A DNA stretch of 64,000 nucleotides from Pasteurellaceae bacterium (GCA_030528525.1 JAUMYT010000004.1:68407-132406), one strand, 5' to 3'; shown: positions 18,803 to 42,812, counted from the first letter of the stretch. Numbers and translations are program-made. Notes: a model not told the origin generated them from the letters alone.

Positions 18803-18877
18803 TGGCTGGAGTACTAGGATTCGAACCTAGGAATGCTGGGATCAAAACCCAGTGCCTTACCGCTTGGCGATACTCCA
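18803..18877 (-). tRNA. tRNA-Gln (anticodon TTG)
   Basis: Reverse complement TGGAGTATCGCCAAGCGGTAAGGCACTGGGTTTTGATCCCAGC...CTCCAGCCA; cloverleaf with TTG anticodon. Confidence 0.85.
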
Positions 18878-18914
18878 AAAGAAAAAACTAACCTAAAGTT
18901 AGTTATATTTGATA

Positions 18915-18989
18915 AGAAATAAGATGGCTGGAGTACTAGGATTCGAACCTAGGAATGCTGGGATCAAAACCCAGTGCCTTACCGCTTGG
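18915..18989 (-). tRNA. tRNA-Gln (anticodon TTG), second identical copy
   Basis: Identical 75-nt sequence to previous copy. Confidence 0.85.
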
Positions 18990-19024
18990 CGATACTCCAG
19001 TCGTTTTATTTGCTAAGCCATAAA

Positions 19025-19109
19025 TGGTGCGGGACGAGGGACTTGAACCCACACACCTCTCGGCGCCAGAACCTAAATCTGGTGCGTCTACCAATTTCGC
19101 CAGTCCCGC
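19025..19109 (-). tRNA. tRNA-Leu (anticodon TAG)
   Basis: Reverse complement GCGGGACTGGCGAAATTGGTAGACGCACCAGATTTAGGTTCTGG...; long variable arm; near-identical to E. coli leuW. Confidence 0.85.
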
Positions 19110-19111
19110 AA

Positions 19112-19188
19112 TGGTGGCTACAACGAGATTCGAACTTGTGACCCCAACATTATGAGTGTTGTGCTCTAACCAGCTGAGCTATGTAGCC
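19112..19188 (-). tRNA. tRNA-Met (elongator, anticodon CAT)
   Basis: Reverse complement GGCTACATAGCTCAGCTGGTTAGAGCACAACACTCATAATGTTGGGGTCACAAGTTCGAATCTCGTTGTAGCCACCA. Confidence 0.85.
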
Positions 19189-26141: not shown

Positions 26142-26240
26142 GGAGCGAAAAGTCAGTTCCTGTCTCAAATCCCTACGCTGATATTAGTCAGATCAGGTTC
26201 TATGGGTATTTCTCAGCTTTGCGAACAAAGCACCCCAATG
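26142..26240 (-). promoter_or_regulatory. TPP riboswitch (THI element) in thiB leader
   Basis: Minus strand GGGGTGC...GCTGAGAAATACCC...GAACCTGATCTGACTAATATCAGCGTAGGGA matches the THI-box consensus. Confidence 0.8.
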
Positions 26241-26278
26241 AGAACGGGCGGATTATACCGCTGTTAAAGAAAGTGGTG

Positions 26279-26364: not shown

Positions 26365-27027
26365 ATGAAAATCGCAAAAAATGTTGTGCCAAGTATTGCT
26401 TACCAAGTACGTACTCAAGACGGCGTATTAGTGGACGAAGCTCCAGTACAACAACCTTTAGAATACTTACACGGTCACAATAATTTAGTTGTTGGTTTAG
26501 AAAATGCATTAGAAGGCAAAGCGGTTGGCGATGTGTTTGAAGTGCGTGTGAAACCTGAAGAAGGCTACGGCGAATACAACGAAAATATGGTGCAACGTGT
26601 GCCAAAATACGTGTTTATGGGCGTGGACGAATTAGAAGTGGGGATGCGTTTTATCGCTGACACTGATGTCGGTCCATTGCCTGTGGTGATTACTGCAGTT
26701 GAAGGCGATGAAGTGGTGGTAGACGGCAACCATATGTTAGCTGGTCAAGAATTGCTATTCAGCGTGGAAGTGGTTGCCACTCGTGAAGCGACCTTAGAAG
26801 AAATCGCCCACGGTCACGTGCATCAAGAAGGTGGCTGCTGTGGCGGTCACGACAGCGATGAAGAAGGTCACGGCTGTGGTTGTGGTAGCCACCATCATCA
26901 CCATCACGATGAAGAAGCCCACGAAGGTTGCTGTGATGAACATCATCACCATCACCACAATGGCGAGTGCTGCGATGAACACCATCACCATCATCACACT
27001 GCAGATGAAACGTGCAAAAAGCACTAA
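26365..27027 (+). CDS. slyD: FKBP-type peptidyl-prolyl isomerase SlyD with long His/Cys-rich tail
   Basis: 220 aa; FKBP plus IF domain, then ...GGCCGGHDSDEEGHGCGCGSHHHHHHDEEAHEGCCDEHHHHHHNGECCDEHHHHHH. Confidence 0.85.
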   Translation: MKIAKNVVPSIAYQVRTQDGVLVDEAPVQQPLEYLHGHNNLVVGLENALEGKAVGDVFEVRVKPEEGYGEYNENMVQRVPKYVFMGVDELEVGMRFIADTDVGPLPVVITAVEGDEVVVDGNHMLAGQELLFSVEVVATREATLEEIAHGHVHQEGGCCGGHDSDEEGHGCGCGSHHHHHHDEEAHEGCCDEHHHHHHNGECCDEHHHHHHTADETCKKH

Positions 27028-27042
27028 TATCAAGGTTAACCA

Positions 27043-28569
27043 ATGAGTGAGACCCAACTCAACACCGGCACGGATTACCTCCGTGCCATTTTAAGTTCTA
27101 AAATCTACGATCTTGCCCAAGTCACGCCCTTGCAAAAAATGGAAAAATTGTCGGAGCGTTTGGGCAATACGATTCTGATCAAACGAGAAGATCGCCAGCC
27201 TGTTCACAGTTTCAAACTGCGTGGGGCTTATGCGATGATCTCCAGCCTTTCTGCTAAACAAAAAGCCGCTGGCGTGATTGCGGCATCTGCGGGCAACCAC
27301 GCTCAAGGCGTGGCACTTTCTGCAAAACATCTCGGCTTGCGAGCATTGATTGTGATGCCACAAAATACGCCGTCAATTAAAGTGGATGCGGTACGTTCAT
27401 TTGGTGGCGAAGTGTTGCTGTATGGGGCGAATTTTGACGAAGCCAAAGCCAAAGCCTTAGAACTTTCCGAAGAATTACAAATGACCTTTGTTCATCCCTT
27501 CGATCACCCATTAGTGATTGCAGGGCAAGGAGCAATCGGTTTGGAATTGGTGCAACAGAGCAACCATTTGGATTATGTGTTTGTGCCAGTCGGCGGTGGC
27601 GGTTTAGCCGCAGGCGTGGCGGTGCTGATTAAACAGCTAATGCCTGAAACTAGAGTAATTGCAGTCGAATCGAAAGATTCCGCCTGCCTATTCCACGCCT
27701 TGCAAGCAGGCAAGCCTGTTGAATTAGATCGTGTCGGTTTGTTTGCGGACGGCGTGGCGGTGAAACGCATTGGCGATGAAACCTTCCGCCTGTGTCAGCA
27801 GTACATTGATGATGTGGTTCTGGTCGATAATGATGAAATTTGTGCGGCACTCAAAGACATTTTTGAGAATGTGCGAGCGGTAGCAGAGCCGTCAGGGGCG
27901 TTGTCGTTGGCAGGGCTGAAAAAATATCTCGATCAATATCAAATCCAAGGCAAGCAGTTTGCTTGCGTGCTGTCGGGGGCGAATATGAATTTCCATACCC
28001 TCCGCTATGTGTCGGAGCGTTGTGAAATTGGCGAAAAACAGGAAGCCTTGATTGCGGTAACGATCCCTGAACAGAAAGGGGCATTTTTGACCTTCTGTGA
28101 AATTCTCGGCAACCGTGCGGTCACTGAATTTAACTACCGCCACGCAGACGATCAACGCGCGTGCATTTTCGTGGGCGTGCGAGTGAGTGGCAATAAAGAG
28201 AAGTTAGAGATCATCAAAAGCCTGCAAGAAAATGGCTACGATGTGGAAGATTTGTCCGATGACGACATCGCCAAAACCCATATTCGCTATATGATCGGCG
28301 GTCGCCCTGCGTCTATTCCACAAGAAGTGCTGTATCGTTTTGATTTCCCAGAACAGAAAGGGGCGTTGCTCAACTTCTTGCAGAAATTGATCGATTGGGA
28401 CATTTCGCTGTTCCACTATCGAGCTCACGGGGCGGACTACGGCGATATTTTAGCGGCGTTTGTAGTCAATGAAGACGAACACGAACAGTTCAAACAAGAT
28501 TTGGTGCGTTTAGGCTACCGCTCGCAGAATGTCAGCGACAGCTTGGCGTATCAGTATTTTTTGAAATAA
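27043..28569 (+). CDS. ilvA: threonine ammonia-lyase, biosynthetic
   Basis: 508 aa; PLP lysine motif SFKLRGA; two C-terminal regulatory domains. Confidence 0.9.
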   Translation: MSETQLNTGTDYLRAILSSKIYDLAQVTPLQKMEKLSERLGNTILIKREDRQPVHSFKLRGAYAMISSLSAKQKAAGVIAASAGNHAQGVALSAKHLGLRALIVMPQNTPSIKVDAVRSFGGEVLLYGANFDEAKAKALELSEELQMTFVHPFDHPLVIAGQGAIGLELVQQSNHLDYVFVPVGGGGLAAGVAVLIKQLMPETRVIAVESKDSACLFHALQAGKPVELDRVGLFADGVAVKRIGDETFRLCQQYIDDVVLVDNDEICAALKDIFENVRAVAEPSGALSLAGLKKYLDQYQIQGKQFACVLSGANMNFHTLRYVSERCEIGEKQEALIAVTIPEQKGAFLTFCEILGNRAVTEFNYRHADDQRACIFVGVRVSGNKEKLEIIKSLQENGYDVEDLSDDDIAKTHIRYMIGGRPASIPQEVLYRFDFPEQKGALLNFLQKLIDWDISLFHYRAHGADYGDILAAFVVNEDEHEQFKQDLVRLGYRSQNVSDSLAYQYFLK

Positions 28570-34844: not shown

Positions 34845-36440
34845 TTAATCGGTTAACTTCGTACCATAGAAATACGAGTAGCCGAATGGGCTTTGTTTGT
34901 AATCCTGTACACGTTTGCTGGTTGGGGCAAAGTTGATCGAGTGAGCCACGTTGATCCACGGGGATTGCTCTTTGATAATCACTTGAGCTTGCTCGTAGAG
35001 TTTGGCTCGCTCGCCTTTATCAGACAAGCCAATCGCTTTCGCTAATAACGCATCTAAATCCGCATTTTTGAAACGTGCGTAGTTGCTGTTGCCGATGTTA
35101 TCGCTGCCTAATAATGGCGATAAGAAGTTATCAGGATCACCATTGTCGCCTGACCAGCCGTAAGTCCCTGCGGTCAATTCACCTGCCTTGGTGCGTTTGA
35201 TGTAATCGCCCCATTCATAGCTAACCAGTTTGGTTCTTACGCCCACTTTTTCCCAGTCTGCTTGAACTAATTCCGCCATACGGCGTGGGTTCGGGTTAGA
35301 CGCACGCACCACAGGTTGCACCCAAATGTCCGTTTCAAAACCGTTTTCAAAACCCGCTTCTTTCAATAATTCCTTGGCTTTTTCTGGATTGTATTCGTAG
35401 TCGGTAATGCTGTCGTTATAGCCCCAAATTGTTGGTGGCAATGGGTTTTTCGCTTGCACGCCTGCACCACGATAAACCGCTTCTAAAATTGCTTTTTTGT
35501 CTACCGCATAGTTCAACGCTTGACGCACTTTTACGTTATCAAACGGGGCTTTTTCGGTGTTGAATGCGATATAAGCAATGTTCAACCCTGGCTGTGAAAG
35601 CAAGTTCACTTTCGGGTCGGTTTTCATTTTGTCTAAATCGGCTGCATTCGGGAAGTCCATCATATCGCACGCCCCTGCTTGCAATTTCGCATAACGAGCG
35701 GTGGCATCTGGCACGATGTCGAAGATCAAACGATCAATATCCGCTTTACCGTTCCAGTAGTCTTTGTTAGCTAAGAAACGAATTTTTTGATCTAACTGAT
35801 AACCTGCAAACACGAATGGGCCTGTACCGATTGGGGTGGTGTCCACTGTTTCAGGTTTGCCTTCGGCTAACATTTTGTCGGCATACTCGGCAGAGTAGAT
35901 CGAGATGAAGTCCATCCCCAAGCTTGACAAGAACGTTGAATCTTGACGATTTAAAGTAATTTTCACCGTGTGATCGTCCACTTTTTCCACCGATTTCAAC
36001 AAGGTTGGGAATTTCATCGCCTTGAAGTACGGGTAGGTTGCTTTCGACACATTGTGGTATGGGTGGTTTGGATCTAACTGGCGTTGGAACGAGAATACCA
36101 CATCGTCCGCATTGAAATCACGGCTCGGCTTGTAATCTTTGGTGGTGTGGAATTTCACGCCTTTGCGTAAATTGAAGGTGTAAGTTAAACCATCTTCGCT
36201 CACCGTCCAACTTTCTGCCAATGCAGGCTCGATTTCCGTTGAACCACGTTTGAATTCGACCAAACGGTTATAAACTTGTTGCGAGCTGGCGTTATAAGAA
36301 ATCCCGTCCATCACTAACGCAGGGCTGAAGCCTGTTGGCGAACGACTCACGCAGTTGATAAAAGTTTTATCCGCTGCTTGGGCGAAACCTGAAACGAGTA
36401 AACTCGCCGCAATCAATGAGAATTTAGTCTGTAATTTCAT
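34845..36440 (-). CDS. ABC transporter substrate-binding protein, family 5 (orphan DppA/HbpA-like paralog)
   Basis: 531 aa with signal peptide; extensive similarity to dppA at 40011; no permease or ATPase genes adjacent. Confidence 0.8.
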   Translation of the reverse strand: MKLQTKFSLIAASLLVSGFAQAADKTFINCVSRSPTGFSPALVMDGISYNASSQQVYNRLVEFKRGSTEIEPALAESWTVSEDGLTYTFNLRKGVKFHTTKDYKPSRDFNADDVVFSFQRQLDPNHPYHNVSKATYPYFKAMKFPTLLKSVEKVDDHTVKITLNRQDSTFLSSLGMDFISIYSAEYADKMLAEGKPETVDTTPIGTGPFVFAGYQLDQKIRFLANKDYWNGKADIDRLIFDIVPDATARYAKLQAGACDMMDFPNAADLDKMKTDPKVNLLSQPGLNIAYIAFNTEKAPFDNVKVRQALNYAVDKKAILEAVYRGAGVQAKNPLPPTIWGYNDSITDYEYNPEKAKELLKEAGFENGFETDIWVQPVVRASNPNPRRMAELVQADWEKVGVRTKLVSYEWGDYIKRTKAGELTAGTYGWSGDNGDPDNFLSPLLGSDNIGNSNYARFKNADLDALLAKAIGLSDKGERAKLYEQAQVIIKEQSPWINVAHSINFAPTSKRVQDYKQSPFGYSYFYGTKLTD

Positions 36441-36629: not shown

Positions 36630-37961
36630 TTAAATCAAAATATTCGCCAAGAAAATCCCCACACAGCAAGCAGTAACGACGCCGATCAAACCAGGCACCA
36701 TAAAGCTGTGGTTGAAGTAGAATTTGCCGATTTTGGTGGTGCCTGTTACGTCAAAGTTTACGGTGGCAATGTCTGACGGATAGTTCGGAATGAAGAAGTA
36801 GCCGTAAGTCGCTGGCAATAAACCGATCAATAACGGAGCAGGCAAACCTAAAGCTAACCCCACAGGCAAGAGCATTTTGGCGGTTGCCGCTTGGCTGTTG
36901 ATAACCACAGACACCGCAAACAAGGCAAAGGCGAATGTCCACGGATAGGCATTAACCATATCGGTGATGCCTGCTTTAAAGGACGGCATTGCGAATTTGA
37001 AGTAAGTGTCGCTCATCCACGCAATCCCGAAAATCGCAATGGCTGCCACCATTCCTGACTTAAACACCACGCCATTCGGCACTTTTTGCACATCGGTTTT
37101 AGTCGCTAATAAGATGATACCGCCAAACGCCAACATCACCATTTGAATGATCACACTCATTGCGATCGGTTTTGGAGCATCGCCAATGGTGCGAACTTCT
37201 GGGTATTTCGCAATCAAAATAATCACGACAAGGGCAAGCAAGAACAGCAACACCGAATTTTTCGCCGAAGCGGGTAATTTCTCATCTAATGAAGTTGCGG
37301 TGGTATTCGCAATGCGTTCTTTCCACATTGGATCTTGCAAACGGCGTTGATATTCAGGATCGTCCGCCAACTCTTTGCCCCGTTTCAAGCTATACAATGA
37401 AAGAGCAACCGTCCCTAAGAATGTGGCAGGAATCGTGACCATCACAATGCTAATCAGACTCAAACTTTCAAAGCCAGGTAATTTGACCATTTCGCTTAAA
37501 TAGTAAACTACCGCCGCAGAAATTGGGCTACCAGTGATCCCCAACTGCGAAGCGACAGATGCCGCCGCCATTGGGCGTTCTGGACGGATTTGATTTTTCA
37601 ACGCCACATCGCCAATAATCGGCATAATCGAATACACAGCGTGCCCTGTACCGAGCATTAAGGTCATCATATAAGTGACTAACGGCCCGAGTAAGGTTAC
37701 CCGTTTTGGATTGCTCCGCAAAATGCGTTCTGCGATTTGGAGCATAAATTTCAAACCGCCAGCGGCTTCCAACACGGAGGCACAAGTGACCACGGCAATG
37801 ATGATCAACATCACATCAATCGGTGGCGAAGTCGGTGGCATACGCAAAATAAACACTTCCACCACCAAGCCAATGCCAGAGACCACCCCTAAACCCACAC
37901 CGCCAAAACGGCTACCTGCGTAGAGGAACGCCAGTAACAGTAAAAACTCAAAATAGAGCAT
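36630..37961 (-). CDS. dcuB: anaerobic C4-dicarboxylate transporter (DcuA/DcuB family)
   Basis: 443 aa; aligns along full length with E. coli DcuB in memory. Confidence 0.85.
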   Translation of the reverse strand: MLYFEFLLLLAFLYAGSRFGGVGLGVVSGIGLVVEVFILRMPPTSPPIDVMLIIIAVVTCASVLEAAGGLKFMLQIAERILRSNPKRVTLLGPLVTYMMTLMLGTGHAVYSIMPIIGDVALKNQIRPERPMAAASVASQLGITGSPISAAVVYYLSEMVKLPGFESLSLISIVMVTIPATFLGTVALSLYSLKRGKELADDPEYQRRLQDPMWKERIANTTATSLDEKLPASAKNSVLLFLLALVVIILIAKYPEVRTIGDAPKPIAMSVIIQMVMLAFGGIILLATKTDVQKVPNGVVFKSGMVAAIAIFGIAWMSDTYFKFAMPSFKAGITDMVNAYPWTFAFALFAVSVVINSQAATAKMLLPVGLALGLPAPLLIGLLPATYGYFFIPNYPSDIATVNFDVTGTTKIGKFYFNHSFMVPGLIGVVTACCVGIFLANILI

Positions 37962-38112: not shown

Positions 38113-38230
38113 TATCCATTCAGATGAGAATTTTTTAGTCAATGTAAAATATTGCAAAATTCTTAAAGAAACCGTTTGCATTTTTATGTTGGCTCAGTTA
38201 TAGTCTCGTCCATTCATTTTAGGAGTTCTT

Positions 38231-38275
38231 ATGTTTACTTTTGCTATCCATCATCATCACCATTTCCCTGAATAA
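38231..38275 (+). CDS. His-rich leader peptide MFTFAIHHHHHFPE
   Basis: AGGAG RBS 5 nt upstream; five consecutive His codons; followed by hairpins and terminator before transporter gene. Confidence 0.6.
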   Translation: MFTFAIHHHHHFPE

Positions 38276-38362
38276 TCTTTCGGGCATTTGGCGTGTTCGG
38301 AAGAACTTCCGAACAATCGAAATGTGATAAATGATAGCAAATTAAGCATAAACCATTTCAAA

Positions 38363-38405
38363 CCCCTTCGGAAGTCCAAACTTTCGAAGGGGTTTTCTTT
38401 TTCAT
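38363..38405 (+). terminator. Attenuator terminator
   Basis: CCCTTCGGAAGT-ccaa-ACTTTCGAAGGG followed by GTTTTCTTTTTC; upstream CTTCCGAA can alternatively pair with the 5' arm. Confidence 0.65.
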
Positions 38406-38436
38406 TTTAAATTTCATCTTACAGGAGAAAAAAACG

Positions 38437-39825
38437 ATGCTATTGGCAAATGAAGTCGTCATCTCAATTATCGTGTTGCTCGCATTAAGTTTAATGCGAA
38501 TCAATGTGGTAATTGCGTTGATCATCGCCGCACTCACTTGCGGTATTTTGGGTAACTACGGTAATGTGGTTGAAGGCAATACCGTTGGGCTGGCAGATGC
38601 CTTGTCGGCTACGGTAAAAAGTTTCACGGGCGGTTTAGGCGGTGGGGCCGAAACGGCGATGAACTATGCGGTACTCGGGGCATTCGCTGTGGCGTTATCC
38701 AAATCAGGTGTGACTGATCTGTTGGCGTACAAAGTGATCCAAGCCTTTGGCAAACGCCCGTCAGGTCGTTCGATGTTTTGGTTTAAATACACGGTGCTGT
38801 TTGTGTTGGTGGCGTTCTCAATGTCGTCACAGAACTTGATCCCTGTACACATTGCATTTATTCCAATCGTGGTTCCACCGTTGTTGAGCGTATTTAACCA
38901 ACTCAAAATCGACCGCCGTGCTGTCGCCTGTGCCTTAACTTTCGGTTTAACGGCGACTTATATGTTGATTCCAGCAGGCTTCGGGCAGATCTTTATTGAG
39001 AGCATTTTGGTTAAAAACATCAACCAAGCTGGACAAGAATTCGGCTTAGCAACCGATGTGGCAGGTGTCACCAAAGCCATGGCAGTGCCTGTCATTGGCA
39101 TGATTTTGGGTTTACTTACGGCGATTTTTATCAGCTATCGCAAGCCTCGTCAGTACGCAACGAACAGCACTGTTCAAGTAGACGATTTAGAAAGCCGTGT
39201 GGCAGGTGTGACCAAATTTAACATTGGCGTGAGCGTACTGGCGATTGTCGCAACCGGTTTTGTGCAATTAGCAACTAACTCGACCATTCTTGGCGGTTTA
39301 ATCGGCTTGGTGATCTTCGCTTTGGGTGGCGTATTCAAACTCAAACAATCCAACGACATTTTCCAAGACGGCTTGCGTTTAATGGCAATGATCGGTTTTG
39401 TAATGATTGCCGCATCAGGCTACGCCAGCGTAGTGAAATCCACAGGCGGCGTAGTGGAATTGGTTGAAAGCATCAAAGGAGCAATCAGCTCAAAAGAGAT
39501 GGCAGCGTTCTTGATGTTATTGGTCGGCTTGTTCATCACAATGGGCATTGGCTCATCCTTCTCAACTGTGCCAATTATCGCCACCATTTATGTGCCACTG
39601 TGTATGTCGTTTGGCTTCTCACCACTTGCGACCATTGCGATTGTAGGCGTTGCTGCTGCCCTTGGCGATGCAGGTTCACCAGCCTCTGACTCAACTCTTG
39701 GGCCAACATCTGGTTTGAATGCAGACGGCAAACACGACCACATTTGGGATTCTGTTGTACCTACCTTCTTACACTATAACATTCCGTTGTTAGTCTTTGG
39801 TTGGGTTGCGGCAATGGTGTTATAA
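38437..39825 (+). CDS. NhaC-family transporter (YuiF/HutT-like, putative histidine importer)
   Basis: 462 aa polytopic membrane protein; preceded by His-codon leader and attenuator. Confidence 0.75.
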   Translation: MLLANEVVISIIVLLALSLMRINVVIALIIAALTCGILGNYGNVVEGNTVGLADALSATVKSFTGGLGGGAETAMNYAVLGAFAVALSKSGVTDLLAYKVIQAFGKRPSGRSMFWFKYTVLFVLVAFSMSSQNLIPVHIAFIPIVVPPLLSVFNQLKIDRRAVACALTFGLTATYMLIPAGFGQIFIESILVKNINQAGQEFGLATDVAGVTKAMAVPVIGMILGLLTAIFISYRKPRQYATNSTVQVDDLESRVAGVTKFNIGVSVLAIVATGFVQLATNSTILGGLIGLVIFALGGVFKLKQSNDIFQDGLRLMAMIGFVMIAASGYASVVKSTGGVVELVESIKGAISSKEMAAFLMLLVGLFITMGIGSSFSTVPIIATIYVPLCMSFGFSPLATIAIVGVAAALGDAGSPASDSTLGPTSGLNADGKHDHIWDSVVPTFLHYNIPLLVFGWVAAMVL

Positions 39826-39837
39826 GTCTAACGCCGA

Positions 39838-39890
39838 CAAGGGGGTAAGAAAACCCAACTTTTTATAAAACATAGGGGAAATATCCCCCT
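39838..39890. repeat. Family A repeat (complete palindromic form)
   Basis: caagggggtaagaaaacccaactttttataaaacataggggaaatatccccct. Confidence 0.75.
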
Positions 39891-40010
39891 TAGCCGAAAA
39901 AAATGATTGCAACTCATCAAAAAATCGGTATATTCCAAAACTGTCTTATTTTCTAAACAATTGTAACATTTTAATAACAACACAACATTTCAACTCAACA
40001 GGAGTGAACT

Positions 40011-41606
40011 ATGCAAAAACTCACTAAGCTCTCTTTCATTGCACTCGCCGTCATTTCAGGTACGGCAATGGCAGCACCAAAAACCTTCGTCTATTGTAGT
40101 GAAGCATCGCCTTCGTTTCTTAGCCCACAGTTAGGCACAGATGGGGCAACGTTGGACGCGTCAGGTCAGCCGATGTTTAACCGTTTAACAGCATTTGAAG
40201 CTGGCACAACCAATATTATTCCATCATTGGCAGAAAAATGGGATGTGTCAGAAGACGGTAAAACTTACACTTTCCACTTGCGTAAAGGCGTGAAATTCCA
40301 CGCTAACAAAGTGTTTAAACCAACCCGTGACTTCAATGCCGATGACGTTTTATTCTCTTTCAATCGTCAGTTAGATCCAAATCACCCATATCACAAAGTG
40401 TCAGGCGGCACTTACGAATACTTCACCGGTATGGATATGCAAAACATTATCGACAAAGTGGAAAAAGTCGATGATTACACCGTGAAAATTAGCCTAAAAG
40501 TGGCGAACGCCCCGTTTTTAGCGAACTTGGCGATGGATTTTGCCTCTATTCTGTCTGCCGAATATGGCGACAAAATGCTCAAAGCGGGCAAACCTGAAAC
40601 CGTGGATAACCAACCAATCGGCACTGGCCCGTTTGAATTTGTCTCTTATCAAAAAGATTCCACAGTGCGTTTCAAAGCCTTTGAACAATACTGGGCAGGC
40701 AAAGCGAAAATCGATCGCTTAGTGTTTGCGATTACGCCTGACGCGTCGGTGCGTTATGCCAAATTGAAAAAAGGTGAATGCCACGCAATGCCATATCCAA
40801 ACCCAGCGGACGTGGAAAAACTCAAAACCGATTCCGAAATTGAGTTGCTCACTCGCCCTGGTTTGAACATTGGCTATCTCAACTTCAACGTGCAAAAAGC
40901 CCCGTTTGACAATGTGAAAGTCCGTCAAGCGTTAAGCTATGCGGTAAACAAAGATGCGATCATTGAAGCGGTTTACCAAGGGGCTGGGCAAAAAGCGAAA
41001 AACCCAATTCCACCAACAATGTGGTCGTACAATGAAGACGTGAAAGATTACGACTACGATCCAGAAAAAGCCAAAGCATTGTTGAAAGAAGCAGGCTTTG
41101 AGAACGGCTTTGAAACGGATTTATGGGCAATGCCTGTTTCTCGTCCGTACAACCCGAACGCTCGCCGTATGGCGGAATTAGTTCAAGCCGACTGGGAAAA
41201 AGTGGGCGTGAAAGCGAAAATTGTTAGCTACGAATGGGGTGAATACCTCAAACGGATGCGTGCAGGCGATCACCAAACGGGTATGATGGGCTGGACGGGC
41301 GACAACGGCGACCCAGACAACTTCTTGAACACTTTGTTAAGCTGTGCAGCGGTGAACTCAGGGTCTAACTATGCGAAATTCTGCCACAAAGAGTTTGATG
41401 GCATTGTGACCAAAGCCGCTCAAGAAACCGATGTGGCAAAACGTACCGAGCTGTACAAACAAGCTCAGTTGCTGTTTAAAGAACAAGCCCCGTGGATCAC
41501 CGTGGCTCACTCCACCACCTACTTCCCAGTACGCAAAGAAGTGAAAGGCTATGTGGTTAGCCCATTCGGCTTACACGATTTCTACCCTGTGGAGTTAGCG
41601 AAGTAA
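40011..41606 (+). CDS. dppA: dipeptide ABC transporter substrate-binding protein
   Basis: 531 aa; near collinear match to E. coli DppA. Confidence 0.9.
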   Translation: MQKLTKLSFIALAVISGTAMAAPKTFVYCSEASPSFLSPQLGTDGATLDASGQPMFNRLTAFEAGTTNIIPSLAEKWDVSEDGKTYTFHLRKGVKFHANKVFKPTRDFNADDVLFSFNRQLDPNHPYHKVSGGTYEYFTGMDMQNIIDKVEKVDDYTVKISLKVANAPFLANLAMDFASILSAEYGDKMLKAGKPETVDNQPIGTGPFEFVSYQKDSTVRFKAFEQYWAGKAKIDRLVFAITPDASVRYAKLKKGECHAMPYPNPADVEKLKTDSEIELLTRPGLNIGYLNFNVQKAPFDNVKVRQALSYAVNKDAIIEAVYQGAGQKAKNPIPPTMWSYNEDVKDYDYDPEKAKALLKEAGFENGFETDLWAMPVSRPYNPNARRMAELVQADWEKVGVKAKIVSYEWGEYLKRMRAGDHQTGMMGWTGDNGDPDNFLNTLLSCAAVNSGSNYAKFCHKEFDGIVTKAAQETDVAKRTELYKQAQLLFKEQAPWITVAHSTTYFPVRKEVKGYVVSPFGLHDFYPVELAK

Positions 41607-41807: not shown

Positions 41808-42812
41808 ATGTTTCAGTTTGTTATTAAACGTATTTTAATGGTGATCCCAACCTTTTTAGCGATCACTTTGATTACCTTTGCCTTGGTGCATTTAATCCCT
41901 GGCGATCCGATTGAGATCCGAATGGGGGAGCGTGGGCTGACCCCAGAAGTTCACGCCCAAATGATGCAACAGCTCGGTTTAGATCGCCCCTTGCCAGAAC
42001 AGTATTTCAGCTATATCAAAGGCGTGTTACAAGGCGATTTAGGCAACTCTTTCCGCAATAATGAACCCGTATTGAAAGAGTTTTTCACGCTATTTCCTGC
42101 TACGGTAGAACTGGCGATTTTTGCATTAGGCTGGTCGCTGATTGGCGGCGTGATTTTGGGCGTAATTGCGGCAGTGAGAAAGGATTCGTGGATTTCGCAT
42201 ATCGTAACTTCTATGTCACTCACTGGCTACTCAATGCCGATTTTCTGGTGGGGCTTGATTTTGATTTTATACTTGTCCACGCCACTTGGCTTGCCTGCAT
42301 CGGGGCGTTTGCCGTCCGAATATTGGATCGAAGCCGAAACTGGCTTTATGTTAATTGATACGTGGAACTCGGACGAGCCAGGCGCATTTGCGGCAGCGAT
42401 TAAATCGCTGATTTTGCCTGCGGTGGTTCTCGGCACCATTCCCCTTGCGATCATCACGCGTATGACCCGTTCATCAATGCTGGAAGTGCTTGGCGAAGAC
42501 TATATCCGTACTGCCAAAGCCAAAGGCTTGAACACCACTCGCATTGTGATCGTCCACGCCTTACGCAATGCGTTAATTCCTGTGGTAACCGTGGTCGGTT
42601 TGATTATCGGGCAGCTATTATCAGGTGCGGTGCTGACGGAAAATATCTTCTCCTGGCCAGGCATCGGCAAATGGGTGATTGATGCGATCAACTCCCGTGA
42701 TTACCCTGTGTTACAAGGCTCGGTATTGATTATTGCCACCTTGATTATTTTAGTGAATTTAACGGTCGATTTGATTTACGGTATCGTGAATCCACGGATT
42801 CGGCATAATTAG
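41808..42812 (+). CDS. dppB: dipeptide ABC transporter permease
   Basis: 334 aa BPD-transporter permease. Confidence 0.9.
   Translation: MFQFVIKRILMVIPTFLAITLITFALVHLIPGDPIEIRMGERGLTPEVHAQMMQQLGLDRPLPEQYFSYIKGVLQGDLGNSFRNNEPVLKEFFTLFPATVELAIFALGWSLIGGVILGVIAAVRKDSWISHIVTSMSLTGYSMPIFWWGLILILYLSTPLGLPASGRLPSEYWIEAETGFMLIDTWNSDEPGAFAAAIKSLILPAVVLGTIPLAIITRMTRSSMLEVLGEDYIRTAKAKGLNTTRIVIVHALRNALIPVVTVVGLIIGQLLSGAVLTENIFSWPGIGKWVIDAINSRDYPVLQGSVLIIATLIILVNLTVDLIYGIVNPRIRHN

What the first reader, a model, noticed from the sequence alone, without database searches (positions are those of the whole stretch)
38221..38436. His5 leader peptide and attenuator in front of a NhaC/YuiF-family transporter, predicted histidine-regulated uptake system
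A 14-codon ORF (MFTFAIHHHHHFPE) with a good RBS carries five consecutive His codons. It is followed by a hairpin (TTCGGAAG-aa-CTTCCGAA), an AT-rich spacer, and a strong intrinsic terminator (12-bp stem then U-run) whose 5' arm can alternatively pair with CTTCCGAA. This is the classic architecture of his-operon-type transcription attenuation. Here it controls a transporter gene rather than a biosynthetic gene, which implies that the 462-aa NhaC-family protein imports histidine.
Basis: partly seen in the sequence, partly recalled or inferred. Interest (0 to 1): 0.6.

Follow-up and report, generated by a model that had tools for sequence, protein, structure and literature searches.

The report
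Histidine attenuator before a histidine-transporter gene
A 14-codon upstream reading frame with five histidine codons, followed by switchable RNA hairpins and a terminator, forms a textbook histidine-sensing attenuator in front of a YuiF-type transporter gene; it is real, but the same arrangement is already catalogued in related Pasteurellaceae.

Summary
The leader ORF is 38231-38275 (MFTFAIHHHHHFPE). It is preceded by TAGGAG and followed by hairpins A:B and C:D and a 16-bp terminator with a U-run. Rfam's His_leader model (RF00514) matches 38251-38399 at 68.8 bits, above its gathering score of 49. When the nascent transcript is folded with a ribosome parked on the His codons, it switches to B:C plus D:E, which sequesters the terminator's 5' arm. 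Without a ribosome, or with one at the stop codon, C:D forms and the terminator arm stays free. The same leader precedes the orthologous transporter in 38 of 80 Pasteurellaceae genomes, and base changes keep both conformers paired. The downstream 462-aa protein has the YuiF/NhaC-type Pfam architecture. A YuiF-type protein of S. aureus has been shown to take up histidine. Sun et al. 2013 list yuiF under His-leader control in H. influenzae, H. parasuis and A. aphrophilus. The only possibly new point is a co-varying long-range helix. It pairs the first leader codons, including the AUG, with the spacer before the terminator, and neither the Rfam model nor the classical model includes it. Interest is low.

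The parts
38175..38204 (+). Promoter-like site, TTTGCA-18 nt-TATAGT. The likely transcript start is near 38211.
   Evidence: Consensus scan, 9 of 12 matches. The number of such sites in the region equals the shuffle expectation, so this is a plausible but unproven promoter.
38220..38225 (+). Shine-Dalgarno sequence TAGGAG of the leader ORF, five bases before the ATG
   Evidence: Read directly from the sequence.
38231..38275 (+). Leader ORF MFTFAIHHHHHFPE plus TAA stop. The five His codons are at 38249-38263.
   Evidence: Translation. Orthologous leaders keep 3-5 His codons and a (L/F/S)(P/T)(E/D) ending, while the N-terminal residues vary.
38231..38248 (+). 5' strand of the long-range helix P0. 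It covers the AUG and the first six codons.
   Evidence: It pairs with 38333-38349: 16 bp, duplex energy -16.6 kcal/mol, z = -4.9 against shuffled spacers. It is part of the minimum-energy fold when no ribosome is present.
38260..38272 (+). Segment A. It overlaps the last His codon and the Phe-Pro-Glu codons.
   Evidence: A:B helix of 10 pairs, -10.6 kcal/mol. It corresponds to the first hairpin of the RF00514 consensus.
38276..38291 (+). Segment B. It pairs with A, or alternatively with C.
   Evidence: B:C is 12 bp, 38276-38287 with 38293-38304, at -13.3 kcal/mol. It is the minimum-energy partner when A is masked.
38293..38304 (+). Segment C. It pairs with D, or alternatively with B.
   Evidence: Alignment columns 55/72 switch G-C to A-U in 9 versus 15 sequences, and the A:B and C:D pairs remain valid.
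38305..38315 (+). Segment D. It pairs with C, or alternatively with E as the antiterminator.
   Evidence: C:D is 9 bp at -11.8 kcal/mol. D:E is 9 bp at -8.7 kcal/mol.
38333..38349 (+). 3' strand of the long-range helix P0, inside the AT-rich spacer between D and E
   Evidence: Cognate 5'-strand/spacer pairs are more stable than non-cognate pairs across 11 lineages.
38360..38375 (+). Segment E, the 5' arm of the terminator
   Evidence: Terminator scan. The arm is paired with D in the His-stalled nascent fold.
38380..38405 (+). Segment F (3' arm of the terminator, 38380-38395) and the U-run TCTTTTTC
   Evidence: 16-bp stem with 7 G-C pairs and a 4-nt loop, -24.4 kcal/mol.
38423..38427 (+). Shine-Dalgarno sequence AGGAG of the transporter gene
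   Evidence: Read directly from the sequence.
38437..39825 (+). Regulated gene: a 462-aa YuiF/NhaC-type membrane transporter
   Evidence: Pfam PF03553 (E = 4e-72) plus PF13726 (E = 7e-19). It is 100% identical to a protein of a Pasteurellaceae MAG that carries the generic name 'Na+/H+ antiporter family protein'.
39874..39890 (.). Palindromic hairpin after the transporter gene. The gene therefore appears to be monocistronic.
   Evidence: Terminator-like site reported on the minus strand. The next gene, dppA-like at 40011, has its own promoter-like site at 39907-39934.

Best explanation
This is a ribosome-mediated, histidine-sensing transcription attenuator. It is homologous to the hisL leader of the his operon and controls a single gene for a YuiF-type (NhaC-family) histidine uptake permease.

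**Proposed mechanism**
1. Transcription starts near 38211, and a ribosome loads on the leader ORF.
2. When charged tRNA-His is plentiful, the ribosome runs through the five His codons to the TAA stop and covers or releases segment B. C pairs with D. E is left free and pairs with F, and RNA polymerase terminates at the U-run near 38400 before reaching the transporter gene.
3. When charged tRNA-His is scarce, the ribosome stalls on 38249-38263 and masks segment A. B then pairs with C, and D pairs with E before F is transcribed. The terminator cannot form, and the transporter gene is transcribed. Histidine import therefore rises when histidine is limiting.
4. Without any translation, A:B, C:D and a closing long-range helix (P0) form, and termination is the default.

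**Shown here:** the sequence elements, membership of the RNA family, the ribosome-position-dependent switch in predicted folds, and conservation with covariation.

**Inferred:** actual histidine-dependent readthrough, the transcript start, and histidine as the substrate of this particular protein.
For: - **RNA family.** RF00514 matches at 68.8 bits against a gathering score of 49, over the full model.
- **Homology to hisL.** In the alignment with the E. coli hisL leader, CATCATCACCAT, CCTGA.TA.TCTTTC.GGC and the CCCC..GGAAG terminator core are shared.
- **Switching in the window.** In the nascent transcript with A masked, the minimum-energy fold is B:C plus D:E at -26.7 kcal/mol. With no ribosome, or with one at the stop codon, C:D forms and E is not paired with D.
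- **Switching in orthologues.** The antiterminated fold is 4-13 kcal/mol better than any fold with E free in 22 of the 24 distinct orthologous leaders. The other two, a detection artefact there, show the same switch.
- **Conservation.** A covariance model finds the leader directly upstream of the orthologous gene in 38 of 80 Pasteurellaceae genomes, at 130-158 bits.
- **Covariation.** Antiterminator pairs are 94% paired, against at most 61% when the partner columns are slid. A G-C to A-U double change (9 versus 15 sequences) is compatible with A:B, B:C and C:D at once.
- **Selection on the His codons.** They vary synonymously (CAT/CAC), and the peptide N-terminus varies freely.
- **Transporter family.** The Pfam architecture fits, and a homologue is named YuiF histidine transporter.
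- **Published biochemistry.** S. aureus 0846, a YuiF-type protein, was shown by 3H-histidine uptake to be the main histidine transporter (PMC10817146).
- **Published regulation.** yuiF is under HisR or His T-box control in Firmicutes (PMC9413887). It is under His-leader control in H. influenzae Rd, H. parasuis and A. aphrophilus (PMC3766115, Additional file 1).
Against: - At equilibrium the 16-bp terminator always wins. B:C plus E:F is -37.7 kcal/mol and B:C plus D:E is -22.0. Antitermination therefore rests on co-transcriptional kinetics that were modelled only crudely, by truncation plus a fixed ribosome footprint.
- D:E closes a loop of about 53 nt.
- Covariation in the core helices comes from few independent events, essentially two clades, and some shuffle controls are not exceeded.
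- The promoter assignment is weak.
- No direct sequence comparison with S. aureus 0846 or B. subtilis YuiF could be made.
- NCBIfam has no model for the protein, and no solved structure exists.
- 42 of 80 orthologous genes lack the leader, so the regulation is dispensable in many species.
Confidence: 0.88

Rival explanations
1. The attenuator is real and senses tRNA-His charging, but the transporter's substrate is not free histidine. It could carry a histidine precursor or derivative, such as histidinol or urocanate. It could be a cation/proton antiporter whose activity merely supports histidine uptake or pH homeostasis.
For: Public annotation calls the protein 'Na+/H+ antiporter family protein'. 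The Pfam domains are antiporter families. The S. aureus homologue was also reported by others to have K+/H+ antiport activity at alkaline pH (PMC10817146). The substrate was not tested for any Pasteurellaceae member.
Against: Three independent histidine-specific regulatory devices (His attenuator, His T-box, HisR repressor) sit in front of yuiF genes in distant phyla. Direct 3H-histidine uptake depends on the S. aureus homologue. Inducing an importer on histidine starvation is the simplest logic.
Confidence: 0.08
2. The short terminated leader transcript (about 190 nt) is mainly a trans-acting small RNA or a small-protein gene. Control of the downstream gene would then be incidental.
For: His leaders appear as abundant short intergenic transcripts in H. 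influenzae RNA-seq (PMC4659474). The leader RNA is very stably folded, z = -8.2.
Against: The peptide sequence outside the His run is not conserved. The element always lies immediately upstream of the same gene, in the same orientation. Its alternative pairings are conserved. No target complementarity was sought or seen.
Confidence: 0.03
3. It is a chance short ORF next to an ordinary terminator or stem-loop, with no regulatory switch.
For: Short ORFs and hairpins are common in AT-rich intergenic DNA. The promoter match is no better than chance.
Against: There is no upstream co-directional gene to terminate, because dcuB is divergent. The Rfam match is above the gathering score. A run of five CAY codons is not expected by chance. 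The element is conserved in 38 genomes, with the His codons preserved.
Confidence: 0.01

Closest known systems
His-leader-controlled yuiF of other Pasteurellales (H. influenzae Rd KW20, H. parasuis SH0165, Aggregatibacter aphrophilus), as listed in Sun et al. 2013, BMC Genomics 14:597 (PMC3766115, Additional file 1)
   Same: The RNA family (RF00514) is the same. The regulated gene family (yuiF) and the bacterial family are the same. My own loci from the H. haemolyticus/H. influenzae group, H. parainfluenzae, Glaesserella australis, Rodentibacter, Ursidibacter and Bibersteinia carry clearly orthologous leaders.
   Different: The host is an unnamed Pasteurellaceae MAG whose nearest named relative for this protein is Frederiksenia canicola, at 87% identity. 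The upstream neighbour is a divergent dcuB-type gene rather than the ttcA-like or other co-directional genes seen elsewhere. The D-E spacer is longer (44-48 nt) and the terminator stem is longer (16 bp) than in the other leaders.
hisL leader/attenuator of the E. coli and Salmonella his operon (Johnston et al. 1980 model: A:B, C:D, E:F versus B:C, D:E)
   Same: It has the same six-segment architecture and the same mechanism. The sequences are alignable, including the His codons, the Pro-Glu/Asp end of the peptide, segment B and the terminator core.
   Different: It has five His codons instead of seven. It controls one transporter gene instead of the eight biosynthetic genes. The spacer between D and E is AT-rich and longer.
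YuiF-type histidine permeases of Firmicutes: S. aureus SAUSA300_0846, and B. subtilis yuiF under the HisR repressor or His T-boxes
   Same: The protein family is the same by Pfam architecture. The logic is the same: histidine availability controls an importer.
   Different: The sensing device is a DNA-binding repressor or a tRNA-binding T-box, not a leader peptide. Sequence identity to those proteins was not measured here.

Membership tests
Rfam RF00514 His_leader (his-operon-type ribosome-mediated attenuator) | Covariance-model score at or above the curated gathering score | tested here: met
   68.8 bits against 49, model positions 1-126 of 126, at 38251-38399 on the + strand.
Rfam RF00514 His_leader (his-operon-type ribosome-mediated attenuator) | Short translatable leader ORF with a run of consecutive His codons | tested here: met
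   TAGGAG, five bases, then ATG. The ORF has 14 codons, five of them consecutive CAY codons.
Rfam RF00514 His_leader (his-operon-type ribosome-mediated attenuator) | Intrinsic terminator between the leader ORF and the regulated gene | tested here: met
   16-bp stem plus U-run at 38360-38405, about 35 nt before the gene's start codon.
Rfam RF00514 His_leader (his-operon-type ribosome-mediated attenuator) | Mutually exclusive antiterminator pairing that is favoured when the ribosome stalls on the His codons | tested here: met
   B:C plus D:E is the minimum-energy fold of the nascent RNA with A masked. C:D forms and E is not paired with D otherwise. 94% of cells are paired across 24 leaders, against at most 61% in slid controls. 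This is computational evidence only.
Rfam RF00514 His_leader (his-operon-type ribosome-mediated attenuator) | Histidine- or tRNA-His-dependent readthrough in vivo | not testable with these tools
   This needs reporter fusions, Term-seq or Northern blots with and without histidine limitation.
Rfam RF00514 His_leader (his-operon-type ribosome-mediated attenuator) | Located upstream of hisG and the his biosynthetic operon (typical of the family, not defining) | tested here: not met
   The downstream gene is a transporter. The published His-leader regulon already includes yuiF and hisJML transporters.
YuiF-type histidine permease (NhaC family) | Pfam architecture Na_H_antiport_2 (PF13726) at the N-terminus plus Na_H_antiporter (PF03553) | tested here: met
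   E = 7e-19 and 4e-72.
YuiF-type histidine permease (NhaC family) | Full-length homology to proteins named YuiF | tested here: met
   P0128 is 48% identical over residues 1-462 and is named 'predicted histidine transporter YuiF (NhaC family)' by IMG. That name is itself a prediction.
YuiF-type histidine permease (NhaC family) | Sequence orthology to the experimentally tested S. aureus SAUSA300_0846 or to B. subtilis YuiF | not tested
   Those sequences could not be obtained with the tools available.
YuiF-type histidine permease (NhaC family) | Histidine uptake activity | not testable with these tools
   This needs uptake assays.

The most novel reading that the evidence does not exclude
His-type attenuators may carry a fourth conserved structural element that neither the classical A-F model nor Rfam RF00514 includes. 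It is a long-range closing helix (P0) between the first codons of the leader ORF and the spacer just upstream of the terminator. In this window it includes the AUG and spans 38231-38248 with 38333-38349.

P0 would enclose A:B and C:D in a three-way junction and make D:E topologically unfavourable. It would also hide the leader start codon once the first ribosome has left. In effect it would lock the terminator-prone fold, and only the first, co-transcriptional ribosome would count.

Evidence:
- Each lineage has its own P0 sequence.
- Cognate 5'-strand/spacer pairs average -10.95 kcal/mol and non-cognate pairs -6.33. No permutation out of 20,000 reached the observed sum.
- E. coli hisL has a version of the helix.
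- An E. coli probing study reported unexplained extra RNase T1 cleavage at the Shine-Dalgarno and AUG region when the RNA shifts to the antiterminator. The same study notes that the classical model predicts this region to be unstructured (PMC10065794).

Caveat: from memory, P0 may correspond to the 'acceptor stem' of the tRNA-His-like cloverleaf drawn by Ames et al. in 1983. I could not check this.
Probability: 0.3. Interest if true: 0.35.

Novelty: already known. Interest (0 to 1): 0.14.

Why it matters
For annotation, the gene now labelled 'Na+/H+ antiporter family protein' in this MAG and its relatives is best read as a histidine-regulated, probable histidine importer. The intergenic region should carry a His_leader feature and a 14-codon leader peptide gene.

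Biologically it adds one more instance of an amino-acid attenuator moved from a biosynthetic operon to an uptake gene. This matters for host-adapted Pasteurellaceae that scavenge histidine. It does not open a new question, because the mechanism, the RNA family and the link to yuiF are all published.

Two by-products may deserve a short follow-up. One is the patchy presence (38 of 80) of the roughly 250-bp leader cassette at otherwise syntenic positions. The other is the co-varying long-range helix P0.

Tried and rejected
1. **Equilibrium folding of the complete leader with a masked ribosome footprint.** The terminator persisted in every state. This is uninformative for a kinetic switch, so I replaced it with folding of the nascent transcript cut before segment F.
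2. **An off-by-one coordinate in my first script.** It was corrected.
3. **MAFFT alignment of the leaders.** It puts the terminator in a shifted register, because the window has one extra U-A pair. The model-based realignment kept that register. The 'double changes' counted at columns 141/170 and 145/166 are therefore partly alignment artefacts, and I do not count them as covariation.
4. **Automatic terminator detection.** It failed for several leaders and for L046 and L049. Each of these leaders gave a valid result in the other call.
5. **NCBIfam scan of the transporter.** No family matched.
6. **PDB sequence search.** No hit.
7. **Vitreschak et al. 2004 (FEMS Microbiol Lett 234:357).** From memory, this paper first predicted yuiF as a histidine transporter from attenuators. 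It is not held and is cited only through the reference list of PMC9413887.
8. **Leaders outside Pasteurellaceae.** The single genome scan returned only Pasteurellaceae among its best 80 loci. Proteins from the representative search (for example the Neisseria homologues at 54% identity) are outside what the context look-up is stated to accept, so I did not try it.
9. **Looser search for His-rich upstream ORFs in the leaderless loci, and the covariance-model search.** Nothing was found, so absence of the leader there is real at this sensitivity.
10. **Paper on Shewanella queuosine and the H. influenzae dual RNA-seq paper.** Both concern only the his operon leader.

Full report
**1. What is in the sequence**

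The intergenic region between a divergent DcuA/DcuB-type C4-dicarboxylate transporter gene (36630-37961, minus strand) and a 462-codon ORF (38437-39825, plus strand) is 475 bp long. It contains the following elements, in order.

- A weak sigma-70-like site, TTTGCA-18-TATAGT, at 38175-38204.
- TAGGAG at 38220-38225.
- A 14-codon ORF at 38231-38275 encoding MFTFAIHHHHHFPE.
- A 9-bp hairpin at 38294-38315.
- An AT-rich spacer.
- A 16-bp G+C-cored stem at 38360-38395, followed by TCTTTTTC.

A run of five CAY codons occurs nowhere else in the 64 kb, except inside the His/Cys-rich tail of an FKBP-type (SlyD-like) protein gene. No shuffle contained such a run. The leader folds far better than shuffled sequence, z = -8.2.

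**2. Identity of the RNA**

Rfam's His_leader model RF00514 matches 38251-38399 over its full length at 68.8 bits, above the gathering score of 49. A direct alignment with the annotated E. coli K-12 hisL leader shows shared blocks: the His codons, CCTGA.TA.TCTTTC.GGC, and the CCCC..GGAAG/CTTC..GGGG terminator core. The element is therefore a homologue of the his operon leader, not merely an analogue.

**3. The switch**

I use the classical names for the segments.

| Helix | Coordinates | Pairs | Energy (kcal/mol) |
|---|---|---|---|
| A:B | 38260-72 with 38279-91 | 10 | -10.6 |
| C:D | 38294-302 with 38307-15 | 9 | -11.8 |
| E:F (terminator) | 38360-75 with 38380-95 | 16 | -24.4 |
| B:C (alternative) | 38276-87 with 38293-304 | 12 | -13.3 |
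| D:E (alternative) | 38305-13 with 38367-75 | 9 | -8.7 |

With the whole terminator present, the terminator is always in the minimum-energy fold, whatever is masked. As in the classical systems, antitermination must be decided before F is made.

I therefore folded the transcript up to the terminator loop.
- With everything up to 12 nt past a His codon in the A site masked, the fold is B:C plus D:E at -26.7 kcal/mol.
- With no ribosome, or with a ribosome at the stop codon, C:D forms and E is not paired with D.
- The antiterminated fold is 6.2 kcal/mol better than the best fold with E free.

**4. Comparative evidence**

The transporter is 100% identical to a protein of a Pasteurellaceae MAG. 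Its nearest named relative is Frederiksenia canicola, at 87% identity. One scan of species-representative genomes gave 80 Pasteurellaceae loci at 69-84% identity.

A covariance model built from the first leaders found the element immediately upstream of the gene in 38 of the 80, at 130-158 bits. It found nothing comparable in the other 42. A looser search for His-rich upstream ORFs agreed.

- **Leader peptides.** They keep 3-5 His codons, sometimes interrupted by one Arg, with synonymous CAT/CAC variation and a (L/F/S)(P/T)(E/D) end. Their N-termini differ freely.
- **Conserved switching.** All 24 distinct leaders show the same ribosome-dependent switch: 22 of them, with a gain of 4-13 kcal/mol from sequestering E, and the other two.
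- **Pair counts.** On the model-based alignment the antiterminator is 94% paired, against at most 61% in slid controls. The terminated fold is 85% paired, against at most 59%.
- **Most telling change.** The G-C to A-U change at alignment columns 55/72 (9 versus 15 sequences) also keeps U-G/U-A in A:B and C-G/U-G in C:D. The same nucleotides therefore satisfy both conformers.
- **Caveat.** The core helices vary mainly between two clades, so the number of independent events is small. Some apparent double changes in the terminator are register artefacts.

**5. Patchy distribution**

Presence or absence of the leader does not follow synteny. With the same co-directional upstream gene, the gap is about 290-350 bp when the leader is present and 25-140 bp when it is absent.

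- **Leader absent:** Actinobacillus sensu stricto, Mannheimia, Gallibacterium, Avibacterium, H. parahaemolyticus and others.
- **Leader present:** the H. haemolyticus/H. influenzae group, H. parainfluenzae, several Rodentibacter, Ursidibacter, Bibersteinia, Glaesserella australis, Otariodibacter and this MAG.

This agrees with the published table. There, A. pleuropneumoniae has a His leader only at the his operon, H. parasuis only at yuiF, and H. influenzae Rd and A. aphrophilus at both (PMC3766115, Additional file 1).

**6. The regulated gene**

The protein has the Na_H_antiport_2 plus Na_H_antiporter architecture. It has no NCBIfam model and no solved relative. The family is small: 736 representatives at E <= 1e-3 among 1.8 billion proteins. 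One full-length homologue, at 48% identity, is named 'predicted histidine transporter YuiF (NhaC family)' by IMG.

Published work supports the family assignment.
- S. aureus SAUSA300_0846, annotated both as an NhaC-type antiporter and as a YuiF-type permease, is the main histidine transporter by 3H-histidine uptake (PMC10817146).
- yuiF is a regular member of HisR regulons and of His T-box regulons in Firmicutes (PMC9413887).

Histidine import is therefore the best-supported function, but it is an inference for this protein. A hairpin at 39874-39890 and a separate promoter-like site before the next gene, a DppA-type binding protein, suggest that the attenuator controls this one gene only.

**7. 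Comparison with what is known, and novelty**

The RNA is a member of RF00514 by every feature I could test. The one untestable feature is the in-vivo response. The association of a His leader with yuiF in Pasteurellales is explicitly tabulated by Sun et al. 2013. From my memory of its abstract, it goes back to Vitreschak et al. 2004, which is cited in PMC9413887 but is not held.

The finding is therefore a correct rediscovery, and I rate it already known and of low interest.

**8. A possibly new detail**

In the ribosome-free folds, the first six codons of the leader ORF pair with the spacer between D and E. In the window this is 38231-38248 with 38333-38349: 16 bp including the AUG, duplex energy -16.6 kcal/mol, z = -4.9.

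- All 24 leaders, and the E. coli hisL leader, have such a helix built from different sequences.
- Across 11 lineages, cognate 5'-strand/spacer pairs average -10.95 kcal/mol and non-cognate pairs -6.33. No permutation out of 20,000 reached the observed sum.
- The helix is absent from the RF00514 consensus.
- An E. coli study states that the classical model predicts the 5' region to be unstructured in both conformers. The same study observed more RNase T1 cleavage at the Shine-Dalgarno and AUG region when the RNA shifts to the antiterminator (PMC10065794).

I read this helix as a lock on the terminator-prone fold that also occludes the leader start codon. This is an inference, and it may have been drawn before as part of the tRNA-His-like cloverleaf of Ames et al. 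1983 (from memory only).

**9. Verdict**

The kind of system is already known. My confidence is 0.88 that this is a functional histidine attenuator controlling a probable histidine importer.

Noticed in passing
window 38231-38248 with 38333-38349; also L001-L079 leaders and L081 (E. coli hisL): A long-range helix pairs the first leader codons with the spacer before the terminator. Each lineage has its own sequence version. Cognate pairs are much more stable than non-cognate pairs (no permutation out of 20,000 reached the observed sum). The helix is not in the RF00514 consensus or the classical A-F model.
   Followed up: partly
loci L001-L080, upstream of the transporter match: The roughly 250-bp leader cassette is present in 38 and absent in 42 of 80 Pasteurellaceae genomes. 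This holds even where the upstream gene is the same: the gap is about 290-350 bp with the leader and 25-140 bp without. That suggests repeated loss or gain.
   Followed up: partly
L038:2900-2960 and the equivalent region in L042, L046, L047 (H. haemolyticus group); L051 and other H. parainfluenzae loci: A second short ORF with its own AGGAG lies between the attenuator's terminator and the transporter gene. It reads MQRHHHYLFDNQKF (three His codons) in H. haemolyticus and MRHLTLNQFSFMRPFTFN in H. parainfluenzae. The window has no equivalent.
   Followed up: no
L001:2925-2985 (Ursidibacter maritimus): A tandem hexamer, (AACTTT) x 9, lies between the terminator and the transporter's ribosome-binding site. 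U. arcticus (L002) has only two copies. It could be a length-variable simple repeat in the 5' UTR.
   Followed up: no
window 26365-27027 (+): An FKBP-type (SlyD-like) ORF carries a C-terminal tail with three H6 runs and several Cys pairs. It is the only other place in the window with runs of five or more His codons. A threonine dehydratase (IlvA-type) ORF follows at 27043-28569.
   Followed up: partly
window 26152-26247 (-): A TPP riboswitch (RF00059, 70.5 bits) lies on the minus strand.
   Followed up: no
window 18806-19188 (-): A cluster of four tRNA genes was found by the Rfam tRNA model.
   Followed up: no
window 34845-36440 (-) and 40011-41606 (+): Two paralogous 531-aa DppA-type substrate-binding protein genes flank the dcuB/transporter pair in opposite orientations. 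The right-hand copy scores 882 bits against the DppA equivalog, below its cutoff of 1005. It is followed, after a roughly 200-bp gap, by an ABC permease gene at 41808-42812.
   Followed up: partly
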